A stretch of DNA of 64,000 bases from a virus (taxonomy: Duplodnaviria; Caudoviricetes): positions 8,097 to 72,096 of the IMG/VR virus record IMGVR_UViG_3300011008_000041. One strand, given 5' to 3'. Shown piece after piece: positions 6,592 to 7,723 of this stretch. Made by a program: the position numbers and the translations under genes. Position 1 is the stretch's first letter; every line of letters starts with the position of its first letter. Under the pieces are notes generated by a model. The model was not told the DNA's origin, ran no database searches, and was given only the letters and a program-made list of their open reading frames with translations.

Positions 6592-7723
6592 CTAGCCGTG
6601 CCTCGGCGACCCAAACCACGCCTGCCCATCCGCTCCGGACCGCACCACAACGCATCATTCCAAACCACGCCTGCCAAACCGAACCCTTCCGATCCCATCC
6701 GCACCGGACCTAACCTTGCCTGCCATACCACGTCCACCCTCGGCTCTACCGACCTCGCCATCCATGCCTGCCAGCCTTGCCATTCCGTACCGCGCCGAAC
6801 CTTGCGTCAACGCGCCATGCCGAGCCGCGCCTGCCATAACGTTCCCTTCCGGGCCCAACTCTGCCTTGACAAGCCATGCCAGCCAGTCCACACCTGAGCA
6901 TGCCGTTTCCCACCGGAACTGACCTCGCCTTGCCCGCCATGCCTCACAGATCCAAAGCGAACACTACCGAAGCCAACCATGCCCGCCGCGCGTAGCCACC
7001 TCGTACCGTAACTAGCCTCAGCAAACCGGGCCTGCCATGCCCAGCCATGTCCCGCCTTGACGTTCCGAACCTGAACGGACCATGACTGCCAAACCGCCCG
7101 TGCCGTACCGGGCGCAGCCTACCCGGACCATGCCAGCCGTACCGTACCAAAGCCCACCACAACAAGCCGTGCCATGTCACACCGGAACTGCCTTGCCTGG
7201 ACGTGCCTGACCTCGCGTCGACTTTCCACGCCTAGCCTAGCCTGGCAAACCGTACCGAAGCTCATCCAACCGGAACCAACCGAGCCCCGCCTAAACCCGC
7301 CTGTCATATATGTACCGAGCCCAGCCCCGCAAAGCCGTTCCACAACTGGCCCTTCCTTGCCTGCCGCACCGAGCCTTTCCAGACCGTGCCTAGCCCCAGC
7401 GAAGCATGCCCCGCCTGCCGCACCGAGCCGAACCTTGCCAAACCCCGCAAGACCCAGCCTAAACAGAGCGAACCGTGCCTTGCCTGCCTTGCCGGACCTA
7501 GCCGGGACAAACCGGGACTTGACACACCTAGCCTGCCGGGCCATTCCACGCTCTGCCACGACGCACCGCTCAGGACCACGCCATTACGTGACTTGCCTTG
7601 CCTGCCAGTCCATGCCATAACGAGACGCGCCAAGCCCCGCCATCCTTACCCTGACCGCCGTACCGAACCAATCCAGAACGGGCCCAGCCAAACCGGAACA
7701 TGACTTACCCAGCCGTGCCTGTC
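6592..7723 (-). ncRNA. GGY-NN pentamer-periodic guide array (about 20 units; VIPR-like guide RNA array)
   Basis: Plus strand reads RCC-NN repeated, e.g. gcc aa acc ga acc ct tcc ga tcc ca tcc gc acc gg acc ta acc tt gcc. 21 delimiters of type gcc-n-gcc; 15 of 20 spacings equal 4+5n nt. Confidence 0.85.

What the first reader, a model, noticed from the sequence alone, without database searches (positions are those of the whole stretch)
6673..7719. The variable dinucleotides read as codon positions 1-2 of protein genes, skipping the wobble base
Taking the plus-strand NN of each unit in order and adding one free base (NNx) gives protein-like strings. These include K-E-L-E-Q-A-G-Y-L, F-I-V-A-D-F-S-A-I-E-A, M-S-E-K-E-L-E-Q-I, A-Y-T-V-V-Y-S-N-G, V-V-N-P-T-K-V-I-T-G, A-E-E-L-K-P-R-Q-Y-R-E-V-L, G-I-T-L-T-A-A-G-T-M-V-F-F and V-E-K-S-G-Q-N-G-M-F-H-V (two-fold ambiguous residues were chosen by me). 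Inference: targets are recognised as NN-skip-NN-skip, the skipped base falls on the wobble position, and the guide is immune to synonymous escape. The GGY-strand RNA would be antisense to the coding strand or mRNA in every recognisable case.
Basis: partly seen in the sequence, partly recalled or inferred. Interest (0 to 1): 0.93.

Follow-up and report, generated by a model that had tools for sequence, protein, structure and literature searches.

The report
VIPR guide array reading codon letters
The 1.1-kb five-base repeat is the guide-RNA array of a phage VIPR system, a CRISPR-related weapon described in 2026 preprints.

Summary
Window 6578-7719 holds about 216 pentamers, NN-R-C-C on the plus strand and GGY-NN on the minus strand. 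Four-base elements, mostly TGCC, cut them into about 22 units of 7-13 pentamers.

**Membership.** The gene just upstream (7730-8398, minus strand) is a homologue of the solved SUSP1 Vipr protein and has a Cas7-like fold. This is therefore a VIPR system (bioRxiv 10.64898/2026.04.26.720920, .720927 and 2026.10.15.759431). Those papers report the 1-nt skip rule and the wobble alignment.

**Tests run here.**
- Unit 6777, written NNx, gives at least 111 exact IMG/VR matches, all in phase on DNA polymerase A motif FIVADFSAIEA. A shuffled order and a gap-2 version gave 0.
- Unit 7139 matches the N-terminus of Enc34-type ssDNA-binding proteins next to those polymerases at 19/20.
- Unit 7660 matches the Vipr C-terminus of a rival phage at 23/24, against 19/24 for this phage's own gene.
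- Of 99 distinct units, from this array and sister arrays, 11 beat shuffles at gap 1 and none did at gap 0, 2 or 3.

**Limits.** Five of the eight listed strings have no verified target. "Always antisense to mRNA" is not a rule, because sister arrays hit both strands. This scan has already found VIPR loci in many other genomes.

The parts
7730..8398 (-). vipr gene: 222-aa stand-alone RAMP/Cas7-like protein (phrog_4652)
   Evidence: phmmer hit to PDB 36pp 'SUSP1 Vipr protein', E = 2.9e-5. A family profile gives E = 5.9e-12. The AF2 model has pLDDT 79.7, and the top Foldseek hits are Csm3/Cas7 chains of type III and VII CRISPR complexes. R167, C203 and E207-W208-R209 align with SUSP1 R138, C173 and D177-W178-R179, the GGY-binding residues named in the structure paper.
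6578..7719 (-). vrRNA array: about 216 GGY-NN pentamers in about 22 units. Units are joined without tails by 4-nt GGCA-type elements (TGCC on the plus strand), which gives a staggered architecture.
   Evidence: Parse, periodicity, no Rfam family. The same kind of array follows the vipr gene on its coding strand in about 20 of 26 related loci.
7660..7719 (-). Guide unit whose NN spell V-E-K-x-G-Q-N-G-M-F-H-V, the conserved C-terminus of Vipr proteins (an anti-VIPR guide)
   Evidence: 23/24 to the vipr gene of L020, in phase. 19/24 to the phage's own vipr at 7737-7771. With codon 4 left free there are two exact metagenome hits, both at vipr C-termini followed by arrays.
7139..7188 (-). Guide unit spelling V-V-N-P-T-K-V-I-T-G, the N-terminus of Enc34-type ssDNA-binding proteins
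   Evidence: 19/20 in L069 and L100. All 20 hits of at least 17/20 are at the start of the same roughly 185-aa protein. That protein is PF10991 Enc34_ssDNA-bd, E = 6.5e-75. There are 0 exact IMG/VR hits.
6777..6831 (-). Guide unit spelling F-I-V-A-D-F-S-A-I-E-A, motif A of phage family-A DNA polymerases
   Evidence: At least 111 exact gap-1 matches in IMG/VR, all in phase and all on the coding strand. Third bases are close to random. The shuffled and gap-2 controls gave 0 hits. The best match in the phage's own genome is only 16/22.
6676..6720 (-). Guide unit K-E-L-E-Q-A-G-Y-L. It shares the five-dinucleotide core K-E-L-E-Q with unit 6939-6983 (M-S-E-K-E-L-E-Q-I).
   Evidence: NN strings. The two units gave 3 and 7 exact IMG/VR hits, all in phase but close to the chance number for 18 specified bases. 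Two of the 6939 hits lie at a start codon.
6988..7032 (-). Guide unit A-Y-T-V-V-Y-S-N-G; no target found
   Evidence: NN string. Against the 2-Mb PolA-locus set it stays at shuffle level. No collection scan was run on it.
7420..7484 (-). Guide unit A-E-E-L-K-P-R-Q-Y-R-E-V-L; no target found
   Evidence: NN string. At shuffle level against the PolA-locus set. 0 exact hits in viral contigs.
7538..7602 (-). Guide unit G-I-T-L-T-A-A-G-T-M-V-F-F; no target found
   Evidence: NN string. At shuffle level against the PolA-locus set. 0 exact hits in genome contigs.
6094..6543 (-). Candidate vap (Vipr-accessory) gene: 149 aa, phrog_15946, with an AGGAGG ribosome-binding site directly after the array
   Evidence: It is conserved immediately downstream of vipr or the array in all 23 related loci that tblastn detected. 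No Pfam family. The AF2 model has pLDDT 91.4. Fold matches are weak only: winged-helix/forkhead-like for residues 7-104 at Z 5-5.7, plus a C-terminal helical hairpin.

Best explanation
The stretch is the guide-RNA (vrRNA) array of a phage-encoded VIPR system, arranged as an operon vipr (7730-8398), array (7719-6578) and vap-like gene (6543-6094), all on the minus strand.

**What is shown here**
- The protein is a Vipr homologue.
- The array is built of GGY-NN pentamers.
- The NN of at least three units match protein-coding genes of other phages with exactly one base skipped between dinucleotides.
- The skipped base lies on the wobble position.

**What is taken from the 2026 VIPR preprints, not tested on this locus**
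- The minus-strand transcript is cut into vrRNAs.
- One Vipr protomer binds each repeat and hides the GGY, so the NN are presented for pairing.
- The filament pairs with one strand of double-stranded DNA while skipping every third base. This forms an R-loop triplex that silences transcription.

**What is inferred**
- This phage uses the array against competing phages that carry the DUF2800 exonuclease / Enc34 SSB / PolA replication module, and against rival VIPR systems.
- Its own vipr gene escapes through three changed dinucleotides.
For: **Vipr homology and fold.** PDB 36pp 'SUSP1 Vipr protein' at E = 2.9e-5 with the single sequence and 5.9e-12 with the profile. Top Foldseek hits are Cas7/Csm3. 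The GGY-binding residues are conserved.

**Array grammar.**

**Conserved linkage.** vipr, array and the same downstream gene occur together in about 20 IMG/VR loci and in Gordonia phages UmaThurman and ODay and Mycobacterium phage Donkeykong.

**One-base skip rule.**
- Unit 6777 has at least 111 exact in-phase hits, against 0 for the shuffled order and 0 for gap 2.
- Unit 7139 reaches 19/20 and unit 7660 reaches 23/24, only at gap 1.
- Among 99 distinct units from the window and sister arrays, 11 exceed the shuffle mean by at least 3 at gap 1. None does at gap 0, 2 or 3.

**Targets are real genes.** PF10991, DUF2800/PD-(D/E)XK, DUF7768.

**Published mechanism.** bioRxiv 10.64898/2026.04.26.720920.720927 and 2026.10.15.759431.
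Against: - There is no expression or binding data for this locus.
- Only 3 of about 20 units of this window have a verified target. The collection scans allow exact matches only, so most targets could not be sought at the 80% NN-match level the papers use.
- No conserved 3' tail or pseudoknot like that of the studied type II vrRNAs is visible, so processing must differ.
- The Vipr here is a distant relative of SUSP1 Vipr. Only 57 residues align by sequence.
- The vap-like protein has no significant fold match.
Confidence: 0.93

Rival explanations
1. The GGY-strand RNA acts as a gapped antisense guide against mRNA, or only against the coding strand, rather than against double-stranded DNA.
For: All three verified targets of this window have the plus-strand NN in the coding sense. 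The array-wide composition favours that orientation, with a total log-likelihood ratio of +17.5 nats.
Against: Sister arrays of the same Vipr clade (64-69% identity) carry guides whose NN lie on the template strand of Enc34 SSB, DUF2800, DUF7768 and phrog_7024 genes. An RNA of those arrays would have mRNA sense there. By composition, 63 of 92 sister units lean towards that orientation. Published assays show dsDNA binding and silencing from either strand. Three of three in one orientation is not significant.
Confidence: 0.05
2. A simple-sequence or G-rich repeat whose 'peptides' are chance products of free choices at ambiguous dinucleotides. Examples would be an R-loop or G-quadruplex-forming origin element, or a protein-binding array without a guide function.
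For: Five of the eight strings have no verified target. Donkeykong's array contains internal duplications typical of tandem repeats.
Against: At least 111 exact 22-base matches against 0 in two controls. 23/24 and 19/20 matches occur only at gap 1. NN composition tracks codon positions 1-2. The array is linked to a Vipr homologue.
Confidence: 0.01
3. A protein-coding gene, as the array is annotated in some actinophage records (UmaThurman gp40, Donkeykong gp48).
For: G-rich sequence is poor in stop codons, so ORFs of 60-150 codons appear on both strands.
Against: A 5-nt period cycles through all three frames, and the 4-nt slips shift the frame again. No ORF spans the array. Units are shuffled between sister arrays with no conserved reading frame.
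Confidence: 0.01

Closest known systems
VIPR systems (Vipr protein + vrRNA), with Escherichia phage SUSP1 and the P. fulva prophage (type II) as exemplars; bioRxiv 10.64898/2026.04.26.720920 and .720927
   Same: - A small stand-alone RAMP protein, with the G-loop [D/E]-W-R and the thumb Arg conserved.
- Guide RNA made of GGY/NN pentamers, 9-16 per guide.
- The 1-nt skip rule, with the skip on the wobble base.
- Phage-borne, with targets in competing phages and in other VIPR systems.
- An adjacent small accessory gene.
   Different: - Only distant sequence similarity: 57 aligned residues, E = 2.9e-5.
- About 22 guides in one uninterrupted 1.1-kb array, against 1 + 3 guides of about 100 nt.
- No conserved 3' tail or pseudoknot between guides.
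- Verified targets are conserved motifs of replication proteins (PolA motif A, Enc34 SSB N-terminus), not satellite or lysis-lysogeny regulator genes.
Staggered vrRNA arrays (fig. S18 of 10.64898/2026.04.26.720920)
   Same: The legend describes vrRNAs derived from positions that overlap by 1 nt, so that the end of one guide is the start of the next. Here units are joined by a 4-nt GGCA element, which is a pentamer short of one base. This gives unit lengths of 4+5n.
   Different: The figure and its example loci are not held, so I cannot check identity of the architecture, the type number or the processing sites.
vipr-targeting solo vrRNAs of SUSP1-family phages (bioRxiv 10.64898/2026.10.15.759431)
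   Same: A guide that reads the end of the vipr gene of relatives. Its self-match is lower than its match to rivals: 19/24 to self against 23/24 to L020.
   Different: Here the guide sits inside the array of a phage that has its own vipr. It is not an orphan in a phage that has lost vipr.
Class 1 CRISPR-Cas backbone (Cas7/Csm3 filament on crRNA)
   Same: RRM/G-loop/thumb fold. One protomer binds per RNA period, with periodic interruption of guide-target pairing.
   Different: The period is 5 nt with only 2 pairing bases, against 6 nt with 5. The guide-to-target register is 5:3. There is no repeat-spacer array, and no Cas family was found among the ten neighbouring proteins scanned.

Membership tests
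VIPR system | Vipr protein: a minimal RAMP homologous to described Viprs | tested here: met
   PDB 36pp 'SUSP1 Vipr protein' at E = 2.9e-5 and 5.9e-12 with the profile. The fold is nearest to Csm3/Cas7.
VIPR system | Residues that hold the GGY motif: thumb Arg, G-loop D-W-R and Cys | tested here: met
   R167, C203 and E207-W208-R209 align with SUSP1 R138, C173 and D177-W178-R179. R167, G206, W208 and R209 are invariant in 15 homologues and E207 is nearly so. The equivalent of SUSP1 H17 lies outside the aligned stretch. An invariant H33 in the first strand is the likely counterpart, but that is inference.
VIPR system | vrRNA of tandem GGY/NN pentamers next to vipr, with GGY conserved and NN hypervariable | tested here: met
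   216 pentamers in units of mostly 9-13. Sister arrays keep the GGY but differ in the NN, and they share and reshuffle whole units.
VIPR system | Targets follow the 1-nt skip rule, not 0, 2 or 3 | tested here: met
   At gap 1, 11 of 99 units rise above shuffles. At gaps 0, 2 and 3 none does.
VIPR system | The skipped base coincides with the codon wobble position | tested here: met
   111 of 111, 20 of 20 and 1 of 1 hits are in phase for units 6777, 7139 and 7660. Sister-array hits in both orientations also skip the wobble base.
VIPR system | Targets on either DNA strand (dsDNA recognition) | tested here: inconclusive
   In this window 3 of 3 verified targets are in one orientation. Sister arrays show both orientations.
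VIPR system | No self-target at 80% NN match or above | tested here: met
   The best match in the phage's own genome is unit 7660 on its own vipr: 19/24 bases (79%), or 9/12 dinucleotides. All other units are at shuffle level.
VIPR system | Adjacent vap accessory gene | tested here: inconclusive
   A conserved 149-aa gene follows vipr or the array in all 23 loci detected. Its fold matches are weak and winged-helix-like only. Sequences of vap1-6 are not available for comparison.
VIPR system | vrRNA is expressed and co-purifies with Vipr | not testable with these tools
VIPR type II (SUSP1 / P. fulva clade) | Each vrRNA ends in a conserved 3' tail of about 40 nt (a pseudoknot in SUSP1) | tested here: not met
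   Units abut through 4-nt elements with no spacer or tail, so I do not file this locus as type II. The type number could not be assigned.
CRISPR-Cas | Repeat-spacer array with contiguous spacers, together with cas genes | tested here: not met
   No direct repeats apart from the pentamers. Pfam and PHROGs found no Cas family in the ten neighbouring ORFs.

The most novel reading that the evidence does not exclude
Guide choice in this Vipr clade may be tuned beyond wobble skipping in two ways.

- Guides may favour invariant catalytic or terminal motifs, such as PolA motif A, the SSB N-terminus and the Vipr C-terminus.
- Guides may avoid dinucleotides of six-fold-degenerate residues, whose first two codon letters can change synonymously. 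CG is 1.2% of 976 NN against 3.9% expected. The AG/CT class is 5.9% against 11.3% expected.

If so, escape would need an amino-acid change at a constrained site. A single guide could then cover a whole phage group that shares the DUF2800 / Enc34 SSB / PolA replication module.
Probability: 0.3. Interest if true: 0.45.

Novelty: new member of a known kind. Interest (0 to 1): 0.3.

Why it matters
That code has been in print since April-June 2026, so the idea is not new.

What this locus adds:
- a large tail-less array of about 22 guides
- natural targets in the conserved core of a widespread phage replication module and in rival vipr genes
- evidence that the same system sits in cultured Gordonia and Mycobacterium phages, where the arrays are annotated as hypothetical proteins

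Those actinophages grow on a laboratory host, so the system could be tested there directly.

Tried and rejected
- **Rfam:** no family in 6000-8400.
- **blastn of the locus against GenBank phages:** no match.
- **Own-genome targets:** none except the sub-threshold match of unit 7660 to its own vipr.
- **Exact scans that found nothing:** unit 7139 in viral contigs, unit 7420 in viral contigs, unit 7538 in genome contigs and unit 7366 in metagenome contigs.
- **Exact scans near chance level, not counted as targets:** unit 7037 with 2 hits in genome contigs, and units 6676 and 6939 with 3 and 7 hits in viral contigs.
- **Longest-ORF classification of target strand:** it mis-called the clear Enc34 N-terminal hits as antisense. 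I replaced it with Pfam/PHROGs identification of the genes.
- **Ideas held before the literature search and then dropped:**
  - a TRAP-like ring binding triplets spaced by 2 nt (from memory only)
  - an R-loop or G-quadruplex origin element
  - NNR read as full codons, which fails because the R-ending reading turns F, D, I, K, N and H into the wrong residues for units 6777 and 7660
- **vap fold:** Foldseek against PDB gave nothing at E <= 0.001. VIA-align gave only Z 5-6 rows, below the level that means more than a common arrangement.
- **Sequencing runs:** The supplementary tables of the VIPR paper are not held.

Full report
**1. What is in the sequence**

Window 6578-7719 lies between minus-strand genes of a 72-kb phage-like contig. 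It has a strong 5-nt period: same-base autocorrelation is 0.465 at lag 5, 0.439 at lag 10 and 0.427 at lag 15.

A dynamic-programming parse gives 216 pentamers of the form NN-R-C-C on the plus strand, which is GGY-NN on the minus strand. They are cut into about 22 units of mostly 9-13 pentamers by 4-nt elements. Thirteen of these are TGCC; others are AGCC, CGCC and ATCC. No ORF spans the tract and no Rfam family matches it.

The eight NN strings in the finding are read correctly.

**2. Is it more than chance?**

Yes.

- *Composition.* Position 1 of the NN runs G > A > T > C and position 2 runs T > A > C > G. NN frequencies correlate with codon positions 1-2 of long phage ORFs at r = 0.57. The figures are 0.09 for the reverse complement, 0.03 for codon positions 2-3 and -0.48 for positions 3-1.
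My estimate is 0.01-0.02 expected by chance. Every hit is in phase and on the coding strand, and encodes [FL][IM]VADFSAIEA followed by RV, motif A of family-A DNA polymerases. The third codon bases at these sites are close to random. The same dinucleotides in shuffled order gave 0 hits, and the same order with a 2-nt gap gave 0.
- *Unit 7139-7188.* It has no exact hit. Within the loci brought in by the polymerase scan it reaches 19/20, against a shuffle maximum of 17 and at most 16 at gaps 0, 2 and 3. All 20 hits of at least 17/20 sit at the start codon region of one roughly 185-aa protein. That protein is PF10991, Enc34-type ssDNA-binding protein, formerly DUF2815.
- *Unit 7660-7719.* It matches the last codons of the vipr gene of another phage (L020) at 23/24. 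The adjacent own gene matches at only 19/24. With codon 4 left free there are two exact metagenome hits, both at Vipr C-termini that are followed by pentamer arrays.
- *All units together.* I took 99 distinct units from this array and from sister arrays and searched 2.6 Mb of sequence, counting both strands. Eleven units exceed the shuffle mean by at least 3 matched bases at gap 1. None does at gap 0, 2 or 3.

**3. What it is**

The gene directly upstream (7730-8398, minus strand, phrog_4652) has no Pfam family. It does match PDB 36pp, "SUSP1 Vipr protein", at E = 2.9e-5, and at 5.9e-12 with a profile of 15 homologues. Its AF2 model (pLDDT 79.7) is nearest to Csm3/Cas7 subunits of type III and type VII CRISPR complexes.

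[quoted passage not shown] They describe:

- a roughly 20-kDa ancestral RAMP
- guide RNAs of 9-16 GGY/NN pentamers
- recognition of double-stranded DNA through the NN with one target base skipped
- the skipped base "overwhelmingly" on the wobble position
- targets in competing phages, satellites and other VIPR systems
- seven types, with varied array architectures that include "staggered arrays with overlapping vrRNAs"

The cryo-EM paper shows one protomer per repeat. The GGY is sequestered by a thumb Arg and a G-loop D-W-R, and an R-loop triplex forms on DNA. In the window's protein R167, C203 and E207-W208-R209 align with SUSP1 R138, C173 and D177-W178-R179. Of these, R167, W208 and R209 are invariant and E207 nearly invariant in the 15-sequence family alignment; C203 is nearly invariant in the 12-sequence alignment.

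The locus is therefore a VIPR system and the tract is its vrRNA array.

**4. Conservation of the locus**

I collected 23 IMG/VR loci with Vipr homologues at 34-69% identity, plus Gordonia phages UmaThurman and ODay and Mycobacterium phage Donkeykong. About 20 of these 26 loci carry a GGY-NN array next to the gene and on its coding strand. The array lies downstream in most, and upstream in Donkeykong.

In UmaThurman and Donkeykong the array is annotated as a hypothetical protein, gp40 and gp48 respectively.

A 149-aa gene (6094-6543, phrog_15946) follows in all 23 loci where tblastn detects it. This is the candidate vap. Its model is confident (pLDDT 91.4). It has only weak winged-helix-like matches in the N-terminal 100 residues, plus a helical hairpin.

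Sister arrays share whole units in different orders, much as spacers are shared between CRISPR arrays.

**5. Targets and strand**

The three verified targets of this window all have the NN in the coding sense. They are PolA motif A, the Enc34 SSB N-terminus and the Vipr C-terminus.

Sister arrays aim at the same replication module. Their targets are DUF2800/PD-(D/E)XK exonuclease, Enc34 SSB, a DUF7768 nucleoside-deoxyribosyltransferase-like gene and phrog_7024. These guides occur in both orientations, and the wobble base is skipped in both.

A composition likelihood called 8 of 9 guides of known orientation correctly. It puts most of this window's units in the coding sense, with a total of +17.5 nats, but three units (6725, 6885, 7193) in the other orientation. 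Most sister units also fall in the other orientation.

So "antisense to mRNA in every recognisable case" holds for this array's three cases but is not a rule. Guides of mRNA sense need a DNA target, as published.

Several target contigs come from the same metagenome (3300045988) as many of the sister VIPR loci.

**6. What remains open**

- Units 6676 and 6939 share a five-dinucleotide core (K-E-L-E-Q). They gave 3 and 7 exact hits, all in phase, and two of the 6939 hits are at a start codon. These counts are about what 18 specified bases give by chance.
- Units 6988, 7420, 7538, 7366 and 7037 have no convincing target.
- The collection scans accept exact patterns only. Two of the three real targets here have a mismatch, so the missing targets are not evidence against the code.
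- Expression, processing sites and the VIPR type could not be tested.

**7. Verdict**

The system is a new member of a known kind, and the code itself is already published.

This scan has noted VIPR loci before, in at least 172 other genomes. One earlier follow-up whose bolder claim about motif-directed guide panels partly fell is a reason for caution here too. I give the "escape-proof guide choice" reading only moderate odds.

Noticed in passing
L001:4149-4490 (Gordonia phage UmaThurman gp40); L003:3030-3395 (Mycobacterium phage Donkeykong gp48); L002:4110-4290 (Gordonia phage ODay, intergenic): Cultured actinophages carry the same vipr / GGC-NN array / vap-like cassette. In two GenBank records the array is annotated as a hypothetical protein. 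In ODay the cassette sits with two HTH genes between the tail chaperone and tape-measure genes, like a mobile insert.
   Followed up: partly
window 6578-7719 and the arrays of L001-L024: NN = CG is about three-fold depleted: 1.2% of 976 NN against 3.9% at codon positions 1-2 of target-phage ORFs. The AG/CT class is about two-fold depleted: 5.9% against 11.3%. These are the dinucleotides of Arg and Leu codons, which can change synonymously in their first two letters. Constraints of the RNA scaffold could also explain the depletion.
   Followed up: partly
window 6676-6720 and 6939-6983: Two units share the run AA-GA-CT-GA-CA (K-E-L-E-Q) at offset positions, as if they tile or cover variants of one target. 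That target was not identified.
   Followed up: partly
L004-L015 arrays: Whole units recur in different sister arrays in different orders, for example the units reading M-E-F-G-S-Q-T-F-A-Y and D-F-K-F-G-E-F-I. This indicates unit-wise gain, loss or recombination.
   Followed up: no
L016, L025, L026: These loci have vipr and the vap-like gene but no pentamer array between them. The guides may lie elsewhere on the contig or may have been lost.
   Followed up: no
window 7247-7361: One 'unit' of 23 pentamers contains a degenerate stretch (TGTCA TATAT). It probably hides a decayed junction between two units.
   Followed up: no
window 1470-4947: Downstream on the same strand lie a Sak4-like ssDNA-annealing protein (AAA_24, phrog_124) and a 680-aa protein of phrog_1735 with unknown function. 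This phage's replication and recombination module therefore differs from the PolA/Enc34 module that its guides read.
   Followed up: no
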